A program made the translations under genes and the position numbers. Positions 49,766 to 56,902 of a stretch of DNA of 64,000 nucleotides are shown piece after piece (position 1 is the stretch's first letter; the number at the start of each line of letters is the position of its first letter). The stretch lies in the NCBI RefSeq assembly GCF_023511815.1, contig NZ_JAIMAV010000002.1, positions 7,352 to 71,351 on the forward strand, given 5' to 3'. Source of the DNA: Alicyclobacillus sp. GTDB lineage: Bacteria; Bacillota; Bacilli; Alicyclobacillales; Alicyclobacillaceae. Under the pieces are notes generated by a model that saw only the letters and a list, made by a program, of their open reading frames with translations, was not told the origin of the DNA and did not search any database.

Positions 49766-50491
49766 GTGAATCGCAGTGAACGCGCCTGGCTCGCCGCCCT
49801 CGCGGGGTTGATCGCGGCGCCCGTCGTCGCCGGTGCGGCCGTGCTGTTGCCCACCACGACGTTGATAGACGACCGAATGCCGAGTTTCCACTTTCAGCCC
49901 ACCGAGGTGTACACCGTCAAACCGGGGGACACCCTCTGGAATCTCTCGGACCGGCTCGGCGTCCCTGTGGCGCAGCTCATCGCCGACAACCAGATTGTCA
50001 ATCCGGACATGCTGCACGTCGGGCAGAAGCTGATCTACCATCCCCCCGGCTGGCGGGACCCGGTCCGCTCCCTGCTCGGCTACGAGGTGCGCCGGACCCA
50101 GGACCCGGCACCGCAGACGCTGACATCCCGCAGCGGGGATCCCCTGCAGTTCCTGCCCCAGGGAACGCGCGTCATCTACTGCACCCTGACGGCCTACACC
50201 GCCGGCTATGAATCGACCGGAAAGCTGCCGGGTGATCCCCTGTACGGCGTGACCTCCACCGGCAAGCACGTGGTCGAGGGAGAAACCGTGGCGGTCGATC
50301 CGCGCGTCATCCCCTACGGCACCCGCGTCTTCATCCCGGGCGTCGGCTATCGGATCGCCGAGGACACCGGCGGAGCCATCGTCGGCAACCACATCGACAT
50401 CTATTACGACGACGTGCGGGTGGCCCGCAAATTCGGTGTGAAATACCACGTCCCGGTCTACATCCTGCCGAGCGATTCGAGCAACGCCTGA
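49766..50491 (+). CDS. LysM + 3D domain cell-wall protein (YuiC-like)
   Basis: LysM (YTVKPGDTLWNLSDRLGVPVAQLIADN) and 3D domain (VAVDPRVIPYGTRVFIPGVGYRIAEDTGGAIVGNHIDIY). GTG after GAAGGAGGAGG. Confidence 0.85.
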   Translation: MNRSERAWLAALAGLIAAPVVAGAAVLLPTTTLIDDRMPSFHFQPTEVYTVKPGDTLWNLSDRLGVPVAQLIADNQIVNPDMLHVGQKLIYHPPGWRDPVRSLLGYEVRRTQDPAPQTLTSRSGDPLQFLPQGTRVIYCTLTAYTAGYESTGKLPGDPLYGVTSTGKHVVEGETVAVDPRVIPYGTRVFIPGVGYRIAEDTGGAIVGNHIDIYYDDVRVARKFGVKYHVPVYILPSDSSNA

Positions 50492-50520
50492 CGGGCCGCC
50501 GCCCCGGCGGCCCTCCCGCG

Positions 50521-50574
50521 GGACCACGCAAAGGCCCTGGACCACGCAAAGGCGCGGGACCACGCGAAGGCGCG
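50521..50574. repeat. Three tandem 18-nt units (GGACCACGCRAAGGCSCK)
   Basis: Units at 50521-38, 50539-56 and 50557-74, read directly from the sequence. Intergenic. Confidence 0.8.
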
Positions 50575-50582
50575 GGCGCCGA

Positions 50583-50662
50583 CGCGCGTCACCGAGACCC
50601 GTCGGACGCCCTTTGGGAGGCGCGCGCCGCCGCGCGTTACCGGGACCCGTCGGACGCCCTTT
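50583..50662. repeat. 32-nt direct repeat (CGCGCGTYACCGRGACCCGTCGGACGCCCTTT) x2, 48-nt period; the second copy covers the last codons and stop of the small membrane-protein gene
   Basis: Copies at 50583-50614 and 50631-50662 differ at two positions. Confidence 0.75.
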
Positions 50663-50897
50663 TGTTGCGCAGCCATGCGCCGACCCAGCAGCCGAGCCAG
50701 GCGAGCATCACGTACAGCAACACCCACGACCAGAAGGTCAGGCTGAACCACGCCCACAGGGCCGCCAGCGTGCCGAACAGAACCAAGAACGTGCTGAGCC
50801 ACGCCGCCCGCCACAGATAGTACAGAACCAACGGAACGAAAAACGACAGCAGCGGGAACACGCCCGCGATCCACGTCATCACCCATCCGCCGAGCAT
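50637..50897 (-). CDS. Small Trp-rich membrane protein (3 TM)
   Basis: ATG preceded by AAGGGGAG. Three hydrophobic segments. No family recognised. Confidence 0.6.
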   Translation of the reverse strand: MLGGWVMTWIAGVFPLLSFFVPLVLYYLWRAAWLSTFLVLFGTLAALWAWFSLTFWSWVLLYVMLAWLGCWVGAWLRNKRASDGSR

Positions 50898-51076
50898 AGG
50901 ACACTCCCCTTGAAACCGACAGGATTCTCGTCACCGGCGCCCATCCCCGCCAACCCCGACCGATCGCCGCCCAGCCAGCGATTCCCGCCGTCATGACTTC
51001 CAGGCCCCTACACCGTCCATCCCGCGAAGCCCCCGGCCCCCTCATCCCCCAAGCGGCCTTGCATCCGCGGACCCCT

Positions 51077-53113
51077 TCACATGAAGCGGTGCCGCGCCGT
51101 CCGCCGACCGGCTGCCAGTTCCGCCCGAACCGCCGCCAGCAGGGCCGCGGCCACCTCCCCCTCGTGCGCCACCAGGTCTTCCTCCGTCCAACCCCCGGCG
51201 CGGAGGATGGCCAATCCTCTGTCGACCAGCTCCCAGGCGACCCACGGGTTCGGGACCACTTCGCCCAACGTCCGCGCCAGCCGCAGCCGGTTCACGGGGC
51301 CATCCGGCGGCTCCCTCCCCTCAGGGCCGTGAGGGGGCCGCCTGGCTTCATCGGGGAACTCGCTCGGCGAACCGTGCCCGTCGGTCACCGGACGCCCGGT
51401 TCCCGGCGGACGAAGCCGCCCAAGCCCGGAAAGCGCCAGCCCCCGCCCCGAGCTCGGCCCCTCGGGTGTCCACGCCGGCGCAGGCGTGCTCGATCGCGCC
51501 GCCACCGGTCCCTCCCCGGCCTCCCCCGAATCCGGTGCCCGCCGCGCCACCCGTTCCGCTGCCGGCGCATCACGGCGCCGGACCTTCGGGTCGCGGCCGG
51601 TCAGGACGTCGCCTGTTGGAACGCCGATGGAGTCGTGGACGGCGGGATCGTGGCCAGCGGGGCCGGGGCCGGCCGGCGGAGCCGTCGAGACCTGGACCAT
51701 GGCCGCGAGATCGCCAAGACCCTCTCTGGACAGCTCCTCCCGGATGGCAGAGACCAGGTCGCCCGCCTCGCGCCGAAAACAGAACACGTAACTCTCATCG
51801 AGCATCGGGATCCCCGTCTTTTGCACGTACGGCTGACGCAGGATCCGGCCGACCAGCTGCGTCATCGCGATCGCGGAGGAAGGGTTCGTCAGGACCGTCA
51901 ACACATACGCGAACGGGCAGTCCCACCCCTCCTGTAGGGCCTGTCTGGTGATGATGAACCGCACCGGACAGCTGCGCGCGAGCAGGTCCATGCCCTCGAT
52001 GTCGTCCCGCTCGCTCGACTTGACCGCAATCTGGTCCCGCGGAACGCGATGCGTGTGCACCAGCTCCCAGACCACGTCGTCGGCGTGGATGCGCCCGCTG
52101 GTCCGCTGATCCCGGCCGGTTCGCTCCACCTGGATCAGGCAGATGGGGCGGATGTACCGTCCGGATGCCGCCTCGAACTGCCGGGCGGCCTCCTCCAACC
52201 GGGCGCGCCACCGCACGCTCTCGGCGAGCGCGTCCTGCCAGTGCGGACCCGGCGCGTTCACCACGTGCAGGTCGAGTTTCACCATCTGCTCGGCCAAAAG
52301 TTCCCGCCCCGAGACACGGACGAGCACCGGGCTGCGCGCGGGCGGTGTCGCCGACAGCTCCACCATCAGGCTCGGATTGAAATTTAGGAGGGTCCGCTGC
52401 GCCCCCGCGCTGTACGCCCGCTGTCCTTCGTCGAGGATGAGCAGGGGTTCCGCCATGCGCAGCACATTGCCGAGCGAGGTTTTCACCTGCACCCCGAGCG
52501 GATCCTCCAACGACCCGTGGTGATCCAGGTTGGGCCAGCGTTCCAACAGGCGCCGGTGCGCGGGCCCGTCCCACTCCGGCGGAAAAAACGGCTCCCACCC
52601 GCCCTGATCTTGAAACAATCGCAGCGTCCGCCCATCGCGCCGGTTCGCCGACGGCAGCATCAACACCAGGATCACCAGCTGCTCCGCCAGATCAAGCGGA
52701 TGAAAGCGATCCGTCTTCTCCACCACCCGCACGCGTCCGCCGGTGGTCACATCCAGAAACTGGCGGTAGGGGTGCCCCCGGTCCCGCAGGGCCGCGAGCG
52801 TCTGCCGATAGATGCATCGGGTGGGCACCACCCAGAGCACGAGGCCCGTGCGCCGCCCCAAATAGAGGCGTTGCGCGAGGTCCATCACCCGCACGGCCAG
52901 GTACGTCTTGCCGCCGCCCGTCGGCAGCTGGATGCAAAACGCGGGCACCGGACGGCCCGACCCGGTTCGTCTTGGCCGATGCGGGGCGTCCGACACCGCC
53001 CGCCAGGCCCGCTCCACGAAATCCGGTCCGCCATCCCGCTCGGCCGCCAGCGCGCGCAGATACCGCTCCACAGCGTGCAGTGCCCGCGTCTGGTACGCCT
53101 TGAGCGGCATCAT
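51077..53113 (-). CDS. ResIII/DEAD-box superfamily-2 helicase, Type III restriction Res-like, with no recognisable endonuclease domain
   Basis: QLPTGGGKT (motif I), LILDEGQRA (motif II), LSATP (III), QALQEGWDCP and LVGRILRQP (VI). ATG overlaps the mod stop (ATGA at 53110-53113). C-terminal part is Pro/Gly/Arg-rich. Confidence 0.85.
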   Translation of the reverse strand: MMPLKAYQTRALHAVERYLRALAAERDGGPDFVERAWRAVSDAPHRPRRTGSGRPVPAFCIQLPTGGGKTYLAVRVMDLAQRLYLGRRTGLVLWVVPTRCIYRQTLAALRDRGHPYRQFLDVTTGGRVRVVEKTDRFHPLDLAEQLVILVLMLPSANRRDGRTLRLFQDQGGWEPFFPPEWDGPAHRRLLERWPNLDHHGSLEDPLGVQVKTSLGNVLRMAEPLLILDEGQRAYSAGAQRTLLNFNPSLMVELSATPPARSPVLVRVSGRELLAEQMVKLDLHVVNAPGPHWQDALAESVRWRARLEEAARQFEAASGRYIRPICLIQVERTGRDQRTSGRIHADDVVWELVHTHRVPRDQIAVKSSERDDIEGMDLLARSCPVRFIITRQALQEGWDCPFAYVLTVLTNPSSAIAMTQLVGRILRQPYVQKTGIPMLDESYVFCFRREAGDLVSAIREELSREGLGDLAAMVQVSTAPPAGPGPAGHDPAVHDSIGVPTGDVLTGRDPKVRRRDAPAAERVARRAPDSGEAGEGPVAARSSTPAPAWTPEGPSSGRGLALSGLGRLRPPGTGRPVTDGHGSPSEFPDEARRPPHGPEGREPPDGPVNRLRLARTLGEVVPNPWVAWELVDRGLAILRAGGWTEEDLVAHEGEVAAALLAAVRAELAAGRRTARHRFM

Positions 53114-54762
53114 CCGCCATCCCCCCGCACCTGGAAGAGGGCGTAAGGCAGCTGGGCGAACTCGACGCCGGCGGCCTCCAGAAGCGCATCGTCCACCCAT
53201 CGGGCGGGCGCGAACACCACGCGGCGGCGCCATCCCGGCGGACCGAGCATGCGCAGGTATTCCGGCGTGATGGACAGCGACTTGAGGATCTCCAGGTCCG
53301 GCTCGTAGACCAGATAGACCTCGGCATCGCGCCCCGCTCCGATGAAGCCCCGGCGCCGGTCCATCGCCTCCGGCCGGAACGGCTCGCCCGTCGCCGTGTG
53401 AAACACGTAGCGGGCCAGCTCCTCATAGGCGGGCAGCGTCCGGCCCGAAAGCAACCCCTCCGGGTCAAGGGGCGCTCCGACCCGGTAGAACGAGAACGAC
53501 CCGCCCGTCCCGCGCCGCAGCGTCTCGTCGTGTGCCTCCGGCACTCCCCGGATGACGCGCCGGACCCGCTCCGCCGTGATGGTGTCCGCGTAGGCCTCCA
53601 TCTCCATCAGGATGAAGCGGCGGCACCCGCCGTCCGCCCGATTCAGGTCAAGCACCGCGTGAGCGGTCGTTCCGGACCCGGCGAACGCGTCGAGCACGAT
53701 GACGTCGGGGCGGGCGGTGGCGAATCGGATGAGGCGCTGAATCAACGCGACCGGCTTCGGATTGTCGAACACCCGGCCGCCCAGGATCTGCGCCGCCTGG
53801 TGATGCCCGGTCGGGCGCAGGTCGGTCCACAGATTGCTGAGCAACGGGCGCCGCCCCGGTGGGATGTAGTGCTCCGGCATCCCGGTCGCGGACAGGCGCA
53901 ACAGGTCCACCGGTTGGCCGGTCCGCTGCACTTCCTCGAGGTACCATCGGTCGATGTTCTCCTGTGTGACCGGCAATCCCTGTTCCCCAAGGTCCGAGAG
54001 CATCCGCTCGTAGTTCCGGATGGCCTGAAGGCTTCGCGCCTCCGCCCAGCGCCACTGCCCCCGCTCGGGCGTGATGCCGAATAGCGGATAGCGCATCGTC
54101 GGCCGGTCCGTGCCCCGCCAGTGCCGGTTCCACCCGCCGGGCCGCGGGTCCTCCTCGTCCGCGTGGACTTTCTGAAAGCGCACATCCGGATTCCGCGAGT
54201 ACACCAGAATGGACTCGTAGCCGTTGGACAGGGCGCCGATGGTGTCGAACTGCGCCTGCACGTTCTTCGCGCCGCGCCGGACGACGATGGTGTCGCGGTA
54301 ATTCTCCTCGCCGAAGACCTCATCCATCAGGCACCGCAGGTGGTGGATCTCGTTGTGGTCGATGCTGACAAAGATCACCCCGCCCGGCGCAAGCAGCTCC
54401 CGCAGCAGCCGGAGGCGCGGCATCATCATGCACAGCCACTTGTCGTGGCGCGACAGATCGTCGCGGTCCACCACCCGGCCGAGCCACGCCTTCAGCATGG
54501 GTGCGTTGACATTGTCGTTGTACACCCACGACTCGGTGCCCGTGTTGTACGGCGGATCGATGTACACCACGTCGACGCGTTCCCGGTACTGCGGGAGCAG
54601 CGACTTGAGCGCCGCCAGGTTGTCCCCGTGGATGATCAAGTTGTCCTCGAGACACACCCGATCCGTCAAACTCCGCTCCGGCACCGGGATGAGTTCGTGG
54701 AAGGGCACGGTGAGGTGATGGCTCTGAACAAACGATTTCCCTTTGAATTGAAGCGTCGGCAT
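53110..54762 (-). CDS. Site-specific DNA methyltransferase, beta-class (Type III Mod-like; DPPY implies N6-adenine or N4-cytosine)
   Basis: Motif IV IDPPYN precedes motif I DAFAGSGTT (beta-class order). GGAGGAG RBS 7 nt before the ATG at 54762. Confidence 0.9.
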   Translation of the reverse strand: MPTLQFKGKSFVQSHHLTVPFHELIPVPERSLTDRVCLEDNLIIHGDNLAALKSLLPQYRERVDVVYIDPPYNTGTESWVYNDNVNAPMLKAWLGRVVDRDDLSRHDKWLCMMMPRLRLLRELLAPGGVIFVSIDHNEIHHLRCLMDEVFGEENYRDTIVVRRGAKNVQAQFDTIGALSNGYESILVYSRNPDVRFQKVHADEEDPRPGGWNRHWRGTDRPTMRYPLFGITPERGQWRWAEARSLQAIRNYERMLSDLGEQGLPVTQENIDRWYLEEVQRTGQPVDLLRLSATGMPEHYIPPGRRPLLSNLWTDLRPTGHHQAAQILGGRVFDNPKPVALIQRLIRFATARPDVIVLDAFAGSGTTAHAVLDLNRADGGCRRFILMEMEAYADTITAERVRRVIRGVPEAHDETLRRGTGGSFSFYRVGAPLDPEGLLSGRTLPAYEELARYVFHTATGEPFRPEAMDRRRGFIGAGRDAEVYLVYEPDLEILKSLSITPEYLRMLGPPGWRRRVVFAPARWVDDALLEAAGVEFAQLPYALFQVRGDGG

Positions 54763-54861
54763 CCCGCCACTCCTCCGGCACCGGGTAGCCTTTCGGCCGT
54801 CCCCGCCTTTCGGCTGGCCCCTGGCCTCAGATCCCTTCTCGCATCCGTGGCTTGTAATAGG

Positions 54862-54890
54862 ATTGTATCCGTTTGCAGAATTCGGGACAA
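54862..54890 (-). promoter_or_regulatory. SigA-type promoter candidate for mod-res (-35 TTGTCC, 17 bp, -10 TACAAT)
   Basis: AT-rich island about 100 nt upstream of the mod ATG and downstream of the fad operon terminator. Confidence 0.45.
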
Positions 54891-54935
54891 CGGCCCCTCG
54901 TCCGTCGCTCCATCCGCCGAGTCCTCAAAGGAGCG

Positions 54936-54973
54936 TAAAAAGGCCGTGTCCACGAGGATGTCGTGGACACGGC
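54936..54973 (-). terminator. Rho-independent terminator of the fadN-fadA-fadE operon (13-bp perfect stem then CTTTTT on the minus strand)
   Basis: GCCGTGTCCACGA-ggatg-TCGTGGACACGGC at 54943-54973, preceded on the plus strand by AAAAAG. Confidence 0.8.
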
Positions 54974-55129
54974 GCAGGTTCTCACACCCCATCACGGGCC
55001 CGGCGACAGCCGGTGCGCCTCCATTCGCAGAACCGGGGCCCGGCGTCCGACGCACAGGCCACAGGTGCGGTGCAGAGGCCGGGGGCCGACGGCTTGATCC
55101 TGAGGATGGCCCGGGGTCATCCAGGCCCG

Positions 55130-56902
55130 TCAGGCCTGGTACGCCTCCGCCTCCAGCACCCGCTGGGCGATGCGGCGTTTGATCAATTTCTGATTGACCG
55201 GCTGCACCCGGGTCAACTTGCGCAGGACCGCCAGCTGCGTGCGCAGGGTGTCGCCCTCCTCCATCGCGGAGAGCACCCGCTTCGCCCGGGCTTCGATGCG
55301 GTCGAACGCCTCCCGGGCGTACACCTGGACCATGTCGACCTTGTTGGTCGCATCCTGCCCCTTCTCGAGGGCCTTCTTTGTCCGCAACAACGCGCTCTCG
55401 AGGGCGTAGATCTCGATGATGATGTCCGCGAGATCGGAGAGGATCTCCTGCTCCTCCTTGAGCGCCTGCATGTATTTCTGCACCGCGAGCCCGCCCGTGA
55501 ACAGGAACACCTTTTTCGCCATCTCGAGGATGTGGGTCTCCGCACCGAGCGGCGCCGACTCATCCGGCAGCGGGAGCATGCCCATCAGCTCCTGCTGCAG
55601 CCCCTGGGCGGCCTGCATCAGCGGCAGCTCGCCCTTGAGCGCCTTGCGCAGGAGCATGTCGGGGATGAGCAGCCGGTTGATCTCATTGGTCCCTTCGAAG
55701 ATACGGTTGATGCGCGAGTCGCGGTACATGCGTTCAATCGGGTACTCCTGGATGAATCCGTATCCGCCGTGAATCTGAACCCCCTCGTCCACGACGAAGT
55801 CGAGGGCCTCGGACGCGTACACCTTGTTGACCGAGCATTCCAGCGCGTACTCCGCGATGGCCTTGGCGGCGCTGGCGCCGTCCACCCGGCCGCCGAGGGA
55901 TTCCAACTGCCGGTCGATGTCGCCCGTCGCCCGATACGCCATGCTCTCGGTGACGTAGCCGCGGATGTTCATGTCGGCGATCTTCTGTTGGATCAGCGGG
56001 AAGTTGGCAATCGGCGTGCCGAACTGTTTGCGCGACTTCGCGTAGCGCACCGCCGTCTGCAGCGCCGCCTTGATCCCGCCGACGCACCCCACCGCGAGCT
56101 TGTAGCGGCCGATGTTCAGGATGTTGAAGGCAATCAGGTGGCCCTTGCCCGGCTCACCCAGCAGATTCTCGACCGGCACCGGCACGTCCTCGAGGATCAG
56201 CGGCCGGGTCGAGGACGCCTTGATGCCCATCTTCTTCTCCTCCGGCCCGGTGGAGACACCCGGGAAGCTACGCTCGACGATGAACGCCGAGAACTTCTCC
56301 CCGTCAATCTTCGCGTACACCACGAACACATCGGCGAATCCGGAGTTGGTGATGAACTGCTTCGTCCCGTTGAGGATGTAGAACTTGCCGTCCTCCGACA
56401 GCCGGGCGGTGGTCTTGGCACCGAGCGCGTCCGATCCGGAGCCCGGTTCGGTCAGCGCGTAGGCGGCGATCCACTCGCCGGACGCCAGCTTCGGCAGATA
56501 TTTGCGCCGCTGGGCGTCATTGCCGAAGAACACAATCGGCAGCGTGCCGATGCCCGTGTGCGCCCCGTGGCTGAGGGCGAACGAACCGCCCCAGGTCATG
56601 TTCTCCGCAATCAGCGCGGAGCTGACCTTGTCGAGTCCGAGCCCGTCGTACTCCTCCGGCACGTCCGCGGCGAGCAGCCCCAGTTCGCCCATCTTGCGCA
56701 ACAGCTGCACCGTCAGCTCCCAGTCCTGATGCTCCAGGCGCTCCTGGTTGGGTTGAACCTCGTTTTGCACGAACGACCGCGTCGTCTCCGCAATCATCTG
56801 ATGTTCCTGGGTGAAATCCTCCGGGGTGAAGACGTCGGACGGCGCCGCCGTCTCAATGAGGAACGCTCCGCCCTTGGTCAGCTTCTTCTCCTCCGTCGCC
56901 AT
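55130..56902 (-). CDS. fadE: Acyl-CoA dehydrogenase (long form, YusJ/FadE-like)
   Basis: ACAD motifs (ALTEPGSGSD, GEPGKG) and a roughly 590-aa long-form architecture. AAGGAGGAA RBS. Confidence 0.92.
   Translation of the reverse strand: MATEEKKLTKGGAFLIETAAPSDVFTPEDFTQEHQMIAETTRSFVQNEVQPNQERLEHQDWELTVQLLRKMGELGLLAADVPEEYDGLGLDKVSSALIAENMTWGGSFALSHGAHTGIGTLPIVFFGNDAQRRKYLPKLASGEWIAAYALTEPGSGSDALGAKTTARLSEDGKFYILNGTKQFITNSGFADVFVVYAKIDGEKFSAFIVERSFPGVSTGPEEKKMGIKASSTRPLILEDVPVPVENLLGEPGKGHLIAFNILNIGRYKLAVGCVGGIKAALQTAVRYAKSRKQFGTPIANFPLIQQKIADMNIRGYVTESMAYRATGDIDRQLESLGGRVDGASAAKAIAEYALECSVNKVYASEALDFVVDEGVQIHGGYGFIQEYPIERMYRDSRINRIFEGTNEINRLLIPDMLLRKALKGELPLMQAAQGLQQELMGMLPLPDESAPLGAETHILEMAKKVFLFTGGLAVQKYMQALKEEQEILSDLADIIIEIYALESALLRTKKALEKGQDATNKVDMVQVYAREAFDRIEARAKRVLSAMEEGDTLRTQLAVLRKLTRVQPVNQKLIKRRIAQRVLEAEAYQA

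What the first reader, a model, noticed from the sequence alone, without database searches (positions are those of the whole stretch)
51077..54762. Stand-alone MTase-helicase islet (Type III-like mod-res) inserted among housekeeping genes
Seen in sequence: a 550-aa beta-class DNA methyltransferase (IDPPYN before FAGSGTT) is translationally coupled through an ATGA overlap (53110-53113) to a 678-aa SF2 helicase with ResIII-type motifs (QLPTGGGKT, LILDEGQ, SATP, QALQEGWDCP, GRILRQ). The pair has its own promoter-like TTGTCC-17-TACAAT (54862-54890), immediately after the strong fad-operon terminator. It sits between fadE and yuiC-like genes that look like core chromosome. No integrase, transposase or tRNA flanks it, and its composition looks like the host by eye. 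Established knowledge: the mod-then-res order, the DPPY beta-class Mod and the ResIII helicase define Type III R-M. Inference: this is the only defence-like module in the window, and it is atypical (see the separate finding on the Res C-terminus).
Basis: partly seen in the sequence, partly recalled or inferred. Interest (0 to 1): 0.7.

Follow-up and report, generated by a model that had tools for sequence, protein, structure and literature searches.

The report
Type III mod-res lacking its nuclease
This is an old, chromosomally fixed Type III restriction-modification gene pair whose restriction subunit has lost its DNA-cutting domain, yet its ATP motor and its partner methyltransferase are still preserved by selection, so it very probably methylates DNA but cannot restrict by itself.

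Summary
A 550-aa beta-class methyltransferase (53110-54762, minus) overlaps by ATGA a 678-aa SF2 ATPase (51077-53113, minus). The pair lies behind a strong terminator and a promoter-like site, between fadE and a yuiC-like gene.

Both proteins belong to a large Type III family (PADLOC MTase_III and REase_III). However, Res matches only positions 71-520 of an 883-position model. Family members are about 835-845 aa and end in a domain with a nearly invariant PDF...ETKG motif, which aligns on the EcoP1I catalytic stretch. The window protein and its Alicyclobacillus macrosporangiidus orthologues (662-670 aa) lack that domain. No remnant DNA was found, and residues 486-600 are degenerate and predicted disordered.

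The same fadE-mod-res-DUF2651-yuiC synteny occurs in A. macrosporangiidus. Two outgroups have fadE next to yuiC or nfo with no mod-res, so this is an old insertion. Full-length relatives sit in mobile or defence contexts.

Mod (dN/dS 0.11-0.19) and the Res ATPase core (0.13-0.21) remain under purifying selection, with all helicase motifs intact.

Verdict: a restriction-dead Type III derivative that is not a decaying pseudogene. It is a variant of a known kind and of moderate interest.

The parts
54943..54973 (-). Intrinsic terminator of the upstream fadN-fadA-fadE operon. It marks the upstream boundary of the module.
   Evidence: A 13-bp stem (9 GC pairs) with a 5-nt loop, followed by CTTTTTAC.
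54862..54890 (-). Promoter-like site TTGTCC-17-TACAAT upstream of mod. A GGAGGAG ribosome-binding site lies about 8 nt before the mod ATG.
   Evidence: It is the only consensus match in 50400-55300, where shuffles give a mean of 0.3. The sequence was read. Function is not shown.
53110..54762 (-). mod: a 550-aa Type III beta-class DNA methyltransferase. It has an N-terminal module with DPPY, a central target-recognition domain (about aa 160-335), an FAGSGTT SAM-binding motif and a C-terminal domain.
   Evidence: Pfam PF01555 at 8e-34. PADLOC MTase_III PDLC03644 covers 1-542 of the protein and 1-539 of 542 model positions. The alignment with six Mods shows conserved ends and a variable centre. 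dN/dS is 0.11-0.19. There is no simple-sequence repeat tract.
51674..53113 (-). res codons 1-480: the RecA1/RecA2 SF2 ATPase ('translocase') core. The Walker A (PTGGGKT), DEGQ, SAT and Q..GR..R motifs are all intact.
   Evidence: PADLOC REase_III PDLC03653 at 6.1e-125, covering residues 40-478. AF2 pLDDT is mostly above 90. The best Foldseek match is EcoP15I Res 4zcf_C at E 9e-13. The motif residues sit in invariant columns. dN/dS is 0.13-0.21, Fisher p 9e-27 to 6e-40.
51314..51658 (-). res codons 486-600: a degenerate G/P/R/A-rich segment, predicted disordered. It replaces a structured beta-rich domain of full-length relatives.
   Evidence: pLDDT is about 30, against a structured 497-555 region in the P0004 model. 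For res codons 481-608, which contain this segment, GC is 0.77 but GC3 only 0.79. Over aa 480-610 there are 49 gap columns and 38% identity to the A. macrosporangiidus orthologue, with dN/dS 0.3-0.5.
51077..51289 (-). res codons 609-678 plus the stop codon: a retained helical 'spacer' segment (VPNPW...). Homology to full-length Res ends here, and the nuclease domain that should follow is absent.
   Evidence: pLDDT is about 90 and the segment is helical. It aligns to P0004 only up to about residue 632-654. dN/dS is 0.32-0.44.
50898..51076 (-). A 179-nt spacer between the res stop and the DUF2651 start. It is present only in the window genome and shows no similarity to the missing nuclease domain.
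   Evidence: DNA alignment with L002 and L003. tblastn of full-length relatives against the window finds nothing beyond 51158.
50637..50897 (-). An 86-aa membrane protein (orthologues carry Pfam DUF2651). It has its own ribosome-binding site and may be co-transcribed, but it is probably a host neighbour rather than part of the system.
   Evidence: It is 75-79% identical to the A. macrosporangiidus genes recorded as PF10852. It is absent downstream of full-length Res in L084-L088. No terminator-like site lies between the res stop and its start.

Best explanation
A complete Type III R-M operon was inserted between fadE and the DUF2651/yuiC genes in an ancestor of this Alicyclobacillus lineage. 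A deletion then removed the C-terminal PD-(D/E)xK endonuclease domain of Res, and the adjoining spacer domain decayed.

Proposed mechanism, inferred by analogy with EcoP15I:
1. A Mod dimer recognises a short asymmetric site through its target-recognition domain.
2. It methylates one strand with SAM, most likely adenine N6.
3. The shortened Res still docks on Mod and on the neighbouring DNA.
4. Res hydrolyses ATP and may switch the complex into a sliding state.
5. No cleavage follows, because there is no nuclease.

The module therefore acts as a methylation module with an ATP motor, marking self or regulating the genome epigenetically. It is not a self-sufficient restriction enzyme.

Shown here: loss of the domain, shared ancestry of that loss, and purifying selection on Mod and on the ATPase core.
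Inferred: methyltransferase activity, ATPase activity, formation of the complex and the biological role.
For: - Family assignment. PADLOC MTase_III matches Mod over its full length, and REase_III matches Res at 6.1e-125 but only over model positions 71-520 of 883.
- Missing domain. Alignments with 10 and 97 relatives show that the typical length is 830-850 aa. These relatives carry a C-terminal domain with nearly invariant QGW, (P)DF and V.E.KG. The window protein, P0002 and P0003 stop before it.
- Identity of that domain. The family's PDF...ETKG aligns on the EcoP1I stretch PDF...IETK.
- No remnant. tblastn finds no nuclease remnant in any frame of the window, L002 or L003. Two other short family members (L090, L091) still carry it out of frame.
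- Structure. The RecA core is modelled with confidence, residues 486-600 are disordered and 609-677 are helical. The best PDB match is EcoP15I Res.
- Shared synteny with A. macrosporangiidus, and empty sites in two outgroups.
- Selection. dN/dS is 0.11-0.19 for Mod and 0.13-0.21 for the Res core, with p below 1e-26.
- Relative rate. The ratio of Res-core identity to Mod identity is the same as in intact systems: 0.73/0.77 and 0.94/0.94 against 0.87/0.88 and 0.71/0.73.
- Literature. An isolated EcoP15I Tr domain (Res 1-705) keeps ATPase activity and DNA binding (PMC3333885). Mod2 is a standalone methyltransferase and the Res helicase core contacts ModA (PMC4490356). Res truncations that remove the endonuclease domain are predicted to inactivate restriction in H. 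influenzae (PMC1976455).
Against: - No methylome, expression or biochemical data exist for this locus or for A. macrosporangiidus in the sources searched.
- Mod does not need Res in studied systems, so the selected role of the nuclease-less ATPase is unexplained.
- In EcoP15I the E domain contributes to the Mod contact (PMC3333885), so the shortened Res might bind Mod more weakly.
- The nuclease identity of the missing domain rests on a motif, predicted secondary structure and a statistically weak hhalign match (E 0.011, probability 3.9%). Pfam and PDB sequence searches of that domain found nothing.
- Only three or four genomes carry the short form, and dS between the window and A. macrosporangiidus is near saturation (0.9-1.1).
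Confidence: 0.62

Rival explanations
1. It is still a defence system. The Mod/short-Res complex senses unmethylated sites and loads or slides with ATP, and the damage to foreign DNA is done by a nuclease supplied in trans. That nuclease could be a separately encoded homologue of the lost domain, another Type III enzyme or a host nuclease. Alternatively, the complex blocks foreign DNA without cutting it.
For: - Strong purifying selection on the ATPase core and intact motifs call for a motor-dependent function.
- Type III cleavage is known to combine a site-bound enzyme with a trans-acting one (abstract of PMC6158743, listed).
- Full-length relatives of the same family circulate on plasmids and islands in other Alicyclobacillus species.
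Against: - No nuclease-domain homologue exists anywhere in the 64-kb window or in the 22-kb loci of A. macrosporangiidus.
- The neighbouring genes are housekeeping genes.
- No non-nucleolytic Type III defence came up in the papers searched and read here.
- The rest of these genomes could not be searched.
Confidence: 0.17
2. It is a decaying relic. Only Mod, or nothing, is functional. The short res is an expressed but useless remnant kept open by chance, by translational coupling or by its recent history.
For: - The nuclease domain is gone, and residues 486-600 have lost codon-position signal and accumulate indels.
- Overall, Res is the fastest-evolving gene of the neighbourhood: 61% identity against 91-93% for FadE.
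- Loss of res function with retention of mod is documented elsewhere (PMC1976455).
Against: - The 480-codon core has dN/dS 0.13-0.21 over dS 0.27-0.96, with no frameshift or stop in three genomes.
- Every invariant helicase residue of the family is retained.
- The rate relative to Mod is the same as in intact systems.
- The truncation and the degenerate linker are shared by both lineages, so the core has stayed constrained after the loss.
Confidence: 0.16
3. It is a canonical, self-sufficient Type III R-M system, as first read, with cleavage carried out by the unusual C-terminus.
For: Both genes score very strongly as Type III components, in the standard order and with coupled translation.
Against: - The C-terminal 190 residues comprise a disordered low-complexity stretch and a helical segment homologous to the family's spacer.
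- They contain no D...ExK motif.
- The catalytic domain conserved in at least 90% of relatives is missing.
Confidence: 0.03

Closest known systems
EcoP15I / EcoP1I (prototype Type III R-M, Mod2Res1; PDB 4ZCF)
   Same: - mod-then-res operon.
- Beta-class Mod with DPPY and FxGxG flanking a target-recognition domain.
- Res with tandem RecA domains and all SF2 motifs; the best structural match of the window Res model is 4zcf_C at E 9e-13.
- A helical spacer follows RecA2.
   Different: - Sequence similarity is very low (phmmer E 3.7e-4, only around motifs V-VI), so this is a separate Res clade.
- The window Res ends inside the spacer and has no endonuclease domain. In EcoP1I that domain holds the PD...ExK stretch aligned.
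- Part of the spacer is degenerate.
Full-length members of the same family (PADLOC REase_III PDLC03653 with MTase_III PDLC03644/03640), e.g. A. herbarius P0004 (838 aa) and the A. acidocaldarius plasmid protein P0006 (835 aa)
   Same: - 51-62% identity over the ATPase core.
- Same Mod architecture and same gene order.
   Different: - They keep a structured beta-rich domain (about 497-555) and a C-terminal domain of about 175 aa with the PDF...ETKG motif.
- They sit next to integrase, Mrr, SMC-like ATPase or NERD genes, or on a plasmid.
- The window copy is truncated and embedded in core genes.
Phasevarion-associated Type III systems with inactivated res (H. influenzae 86-028NP, N. meningitidis modA11; Fox et al. 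2007, PMC1976455)
   Same: - Res loses its C-terminal endonuclease domain while mod is retained (722 aa against 930 aa in H. influenzae).
- The system is proposed to shift from restriction to methylation-only or epigenetic roles.
   Different: - Those are strain-level frameshifts in which the full-length res DNA is still present, and mod is phase-variable through repeat tracts.
- Here the domain-coding DNA is deleted.
- mod has no repeat tract.
- The truncated state is shared across species, and the ATPase core stays under purifying selection.
Engineered EcoP15I Tr domain (Res 1-705; Wyszomirski et al. 2012, PMC3333885)
   Same: It is a Res consisting of the motor only. In vitro it still hydrolyses ATP, with Mod facilitating this, and binds DNA. 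This is the activity proposed for the window protein.
   Different: - It is a laboratory construct.
- It separated from Mod at high salt, which the authors took to mean that the E domain helps the Mod contact.
- Whether the natural short Res compensates for this is unknown.
Solitary (orphan) DNA methyltransferases derived from R-M systems (Oliveira et al. 2014, PMC4176335)
   Same: A methyltransferase kept in the chromosome without a working cognate nuclease, under stronger purifying selection than the R component.
   Different: - The partner gene is not lost; it persists as a constrained ATPase.
- That study found that solitary genes rarely arise by in-situ degradation of complete systems. 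This locus would be one such case.

Membership tests
Type III restriction-modification system | Mod subunit: beta-class amino-methyltransferase (motif IV DPPY, then the target-recognition domain, then motif I FxGxG) | tested here: met
   IDPPYN at about aa 68-73 and FAGSGTT at about aa 360. Pfam PF01555 at 8e-34. PADLOC MTase_III matches over the full length.
Type III restriction-modification system | Res subunit with SF2 helicase-like ATPase motifs (Walker A, DExx, SAT, motif VI) | tested here: met
   All motifs are present in invariant columns. Pfam ResIII at 3.3e-10. PADLOC REase_III at 6.1e-125. The best fold match is EcoP15I Res.
Type III restriction-modification system | Res carries a C-terminal PD-(D/E)xK endonuclease domain | tested here: not met
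   The REase_III profile is matched only over positions 71-520 of 883. The alignment ends before the family's PDF...ETKG domain. No remnant exists in any frame of the window. The C-terminus is modelled as disordered followed by helical.
Type III restriction-modification system | mod upstream of res in one operon | tested here: met
   ATGA overlap at 53113-53110. There is a single promoter-like site upstream. The only terminator-like matches inside the two genes are short 5-7-bp stems.
Type III restriction-modification system | ATP-dependent cleavage that requires two inversely oriented unmethylated sites, and methylation of one strand of an asymmetric site | not testable with these tools
   This needs biochemistry and a methylome. 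No Alicyclobacillus methylome paper was found.
Phasevarion (phase-variable Type III mod with dispensable res) | Simple-sequence repeat tract in or before mod that gives ON/OFF switching | tested here: not met
   TRF finds only short arrays of about two copies in mod-res (13-, 15- and 21-nt units) and a 2.5-copy 6-nt run. A regex scan of mod-res and its upstream region finds no homopolymer of 7 or more and no repeat of a 2-6-nt unit with 5 or more copies.
Phasevarion (phase-variable Type III mod with dispensable res) | res inactivated by loss of the endonuclease domain | tested here: met
   The domain is absent, but through deletion shared across species rather than a strain-level frameshift.
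Solitary / orphan methyltransferase | No cognate restriction gene adjacent | tested here: inconclusive
   No functional nuclease gene is adjacent, but a constrained res-derived ATPase gene is translationally coupled to mod.
Other methyltransferase-plus-helicase defence systems (BREX, DISARM) | Matches to their signature proteins (PglX/BrxC/PglZ; DrmA/B/C/D) | tested here: not met
   In PADLOC, 23 of the 25 Mod families shown and 6 of the 7 Res families are RM Type II/III models. The others are an orphan MTase model, mad2 (2.6e-9, partial) and PDC-M23B (0.0012). The neighbouring genes are fad, DUF2651, yuiC and nfo.

The most novel reading that the evidence does not exclude
The Type III motor has a selected function that needs no nuclease of its own. 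In this lineage a Mod2/Res(ATPase-only) complex has been kept for a long time as a working machine. It could be an ATP-driven sliding complex that interferes with unmethylated invading DNA or hands it to another nuclease. It could instead be a motor-assisted methylation system with an epigenetic role in a free-living thermoacidophile, with no phase variation involved.
Probability: 0.4. Interest if true: 0.65.

Novelty: new variant of a known kind. Interest (0 to 1): 0.45.

Why it matters
- **Annotation.** Tools that score proteins by profile (PADLOC here, and by extension similar tools) would very probably call this a complete Type III R-M system, yet it cannot cut DNA on its own. That matters for defence-system censuses.
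- **Biology.** Losses of the Res nuclease are known as recent strain-level events in phase-variable pathogens. Here the loss is old, shared between species and followed by continued purifying selection on the ATPase. This points to a nuclease-independent role for the Type III motor, or at least to a stable route from restriction to domesticated methylation.
- **Testability.** A. macrosporangiidus has sequenced isolate genomes, so the methylated motif, the ATPase activity and any phenotype may be directly testable.

Tried and rejected
- **Frameshift or split gene.** tblastn of eight relatives against all six frames of the window found nothing beyond P0004 residue about 632. This reading is rejected for this locus. 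It holds for two unrelated short family members, L090 and L091.
- **Pfam scan of the C-terminal domain of three full-length relatives at E up to 10.** No nuclease family was found.
- **Profile (A5) search of PDB sequences.** The only hit was one to Integrator subunit 8 that looks like chance.
- **Foldseek of the full-length P0004 model.** The list is dominated by helicases, so the nuclease fold could not be checked separately. The E domain is also disordered in 4ZCF (PMC4490356).
- **hhalign of A5 against the EcoP1I Res C-terminus.** It aligns the catalytic motif, but with weak statistics.
- **Phase variation.** No repeat tracts were found.
- **Mobility marks.** There is no tRNA. A 31-nt, 71%-complementary inverted repeat brackets mod-res but was judged chance in 70% GC DNA.
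- **Genome scan with FadE.** Only two of the 80 loci were informative outgroups.
- **Representative search.** About 10-15% of the top clusters are shorter than 700 aa, but most may be contig-end fragments, so the frequency of true nuclease-less forms could not be estimated.
- **DUF2651 as a system component.** Rejected as unsupported, because it is absent from the full-length loci.

Full report
**1. What is there**

On the minus strand, the fadN-fadA-fadE operon ends at 55130. A strong hairpin terminator follows at 54973-54943, and a promoter-like TTGTCC-17-TACAAT lies at 54890-54862.

Two overlapping ORFs come next:
- mod, 53110-54762, 550 aa.
- res, 51077-53113, 678 aa. Its ATG overlaps the mod TGA as ATGA.

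The 718-aa ORF in the mechanical list starts inside mod. All homologues begin at M(M)xLKxYQ, which is the 678-aa start.

Downstream come a 179-nt spacer, an 86-aa membrane protein gene (50637-50897) and, convergently, a LysM+3D (yuiC-like) gene (49766-50491).

The database holds the identical Res protein from an Alicyclobacillus sp. MAG, named only 'DEAD/DEAH box helicase family protein'.

**2. Family assignment**

- Mod is a Pfam N6_N4_Mtase (8e-34). It matches PADLOC MTase_III models at 7.5e-129 and 4.3e-115, the second over the whole protein.
- Mod has DPPY before FxGxG, with a variable central region between conserved ends, as Type III Mods do.
- Res matches Pfam ResIII and PADLOC REase_III PDLC03653 at 6.1e-125, but only over model positions 71-520 of 883.
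- The AlphaFold model of Res has a confident two-RecA core. Its best PDB match is EcoP15I Res (4zcf_C, E 9e-13).

**3. The missing domain**

More than 7000 database proteins match Res, and typical lengths are 830-850 aa. In alignments with 10 and with 97 relatives, these proteins continue past the window protein. They carry a domain of about 175 aa with nearly invariant QGW, (P)DF and V.E.KG.

In the model of the full-length relative P0004, D755 lies just before one strand and E776-x-K778 lies in the next. This is the classical PD-(D/E)xK arrangement.

A profile of this domain aligns PDF...ETKG on the EcoP1I Res stretch PDF...IETK. From my own recollection of the literature, not checked here, those are the catalytic residues D898, E916 and K918. 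The alignment statistics are weak, and Pfam and PDB sequence searches gave nothing. The nuclease identity is therefore well founded but not proven.

The window Res and two A. macrosporangiidus proteins (670 and 662 aa) stop before this domain. tblastn finds no trace of it in any frame of the window or of their loci.

In addition, residues 486-600 replace a structured beta-rich domain of the relatives with a G/P/R/A-rich stretch:
- It is predicted disordered, with pLDDT about 30.
- It has lost the codon-position GC signal: GC is 0.77 but GC3 only 0.79 over codons 481-608.
- It is full of indels.

A helical segment (609-677) homologous to the family's spacer is kept.

**4. History**

A. macrosporangiidus (two assemblies and one read-set assembly) has the same order: fadN, fadA, fadE, mod, short res, DUF2651, LysM/3D, nfo, penicillin amidase.

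Protein identity to the window:

| Protein | Identity to window (%) |
|---|---|
| FadA | 93-94 |
| FadE | 91-93 |
| Nfo | 90-91 |
| YuiC | 85-86 |
| Mod | 76-77 |
| DUF2651 | 75-79 |
| Res | 61 |

Two outgroups have empty sites:
- In Alicyclobacillus sp. SP_1 (L004), fadE is followed by a small 101-aa ORF and then nfo.
- In a Bacillota MAG (L006), fadE is followed directly by yuiC.

The pair is therefore an insertion, but an old one. It is shared by at least two species-level lineages (dS about 0.7 in flanking genes), and its composition is fully host-like.

The truncation point and the degenerate linker are shared, so the nuclease was lost before these lineages split.

Full-length relatives in A. 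herbarius, another Alicyclobacillus MAG and an A. acidocaldarius plasmid lie beside integrase, Mrr, SMC-like ATPase or NERD genes. None has a DUF2651 gene downstream. The small gene is thus not a recognisable part of the system.

**5. Is it dead?**

Nei-Gojobori estimates:

| Gene or region | dN/dS |
|---|---|
| Mod | 0.11-0.19 |
| Res codons 1-480 | 0.13 (dS 0.27) to 0.21 (dS 0.96) |
| Res codons 480-610 (degenerate linker) | 0.3-0.5 |
| Res codons 610-680 (helical tail) | 0.32-0.44 |
| FadE | 0.07-0.10 |

The deficit of non-synonymous changes in the core is highly significant (Fisher p 9e-27 and 6e-40). Every helicase motif residue that is invariant in the family is retained.

The ratio of Res-core identity to Mod identity in this clade is 0.73/0.77 and 0.94/0.94. 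In intact systems it is 0.87/0.88, 0.71/0.73 and 0.70/0.72. The ATPase core has therefore not relaxed since the nuclease was lost. A plain pseudogene is unlikely.

**6. How it most likely works**

By analogy with EcoP15I:
- Mod2 is a standalone methyltransferase that modifies one strand of an asymmetric site.
- The Res helicase core contacts ModA and the downstream DNA (PMC4490356).
- An engineered motor-only Res (residues 1-705) keeps ATPase activity and DNA binding (PMC3333885).

I infer a Mod2/short-Res complex that methylates and hydrolyses ATP but cannot cleave. What the motor is selected for is unknown.

**7. Comparison with known cases**

The closest precedent is the loss of the Res endonuclease domain in phase-variable Type III systems of Haemophilus and Neisseria (PMC1976455). 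Those are recent frameshifts with the DNA still present and with repeat-driven switching of mod. Here there is no repeat tract, and the DNA is deleted.

Two other short family members that I checked are frameshifted or split genes. They still encode the domain downstream, out of frame.

Oliveira et al. [quoted passage not shown] This locus is such a case, with the unusual twist that the R gene survives as a constrained ATPase.

**8. Verdict**

- Novelty: a new variant of a known kind.
- Interest is moderate, at 0.45.
- The main open question is what the nuclease-free motor does. It is testable in A. macrosporangiidus.

Noticed in passing
window 50517-50662: An 18-bp unit repeated 3.2 times (CGGGACCACGCAAAGGCC, 50519-50576) is followed by a 43-nt direct repeat in two copies (91% identical, 48-nt spacing). 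The second copy overlaps the DUF2651 stop codon. Both lie in the convergent gap between the yuiC-like gene and DUF2651. A 28-nt core of the direct repeat has no other copy in the window.
   Followed up: partly
window 50898-51076: A 179-nt spacer between the res stop and the DUF2651 start exists only in the window genome. In A. macrosporangiidus the short res ORF runs into the DUF2651 ribosome-binding site and start. The spacer shows no similarity to the lost nuclease domain.
   Followed up: partly
window 51029-51059 and 55056-55086: A weak 31-nt inverted repeat (71% complementary) brackets mod-res almost exactly. One arm lies in the spacer after res, the other between the fadE stop and its terminator. 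It is probably chance in 70% GC DNA.
   Followed up: no
window 51290-51673: The DNA coding for Res residues 481-608 has the highest GC of the region (0.77) but a lower GC3 (0.79) than the neighbouring genes (0.85-0.90). This is the signature of a stretch that no longer evolves as constrained coding sequence although it stays in frame.
   Followed up: yes
L084 1-13229 (A. herbarius AUMH01000014.1): The full-length relative sits in a compact defence island: an Mrr_cat nuclease, a tyrosine integrase, Type III mod-res, and an 845-aa SMC/AAA_13-like ATPase directly downstream.
   Followed up: no
L090 1-9989 (ENA ERZ21862620 contig): There are two ResIII-type genes on one contig, with DDE transposases between and after them. 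The second res is split into a 662-aa ORF and a 146-aa ORF, and the nuclease domain is in a different frame. This is either a frameshift or a long-read indel error.
   Followed up: partly
L004 11931-12236 (Alicyclobacillus sp. SP_1): At the position occupied by mod-res in the window, this outgroup has only a 101-aa ORF between fadE and nfo. It has neither a yuiC-like nor a DUF2651 gene, so the interval downstream of fadE varies among Alicyclobacillus genomes.
   Followed up: partly
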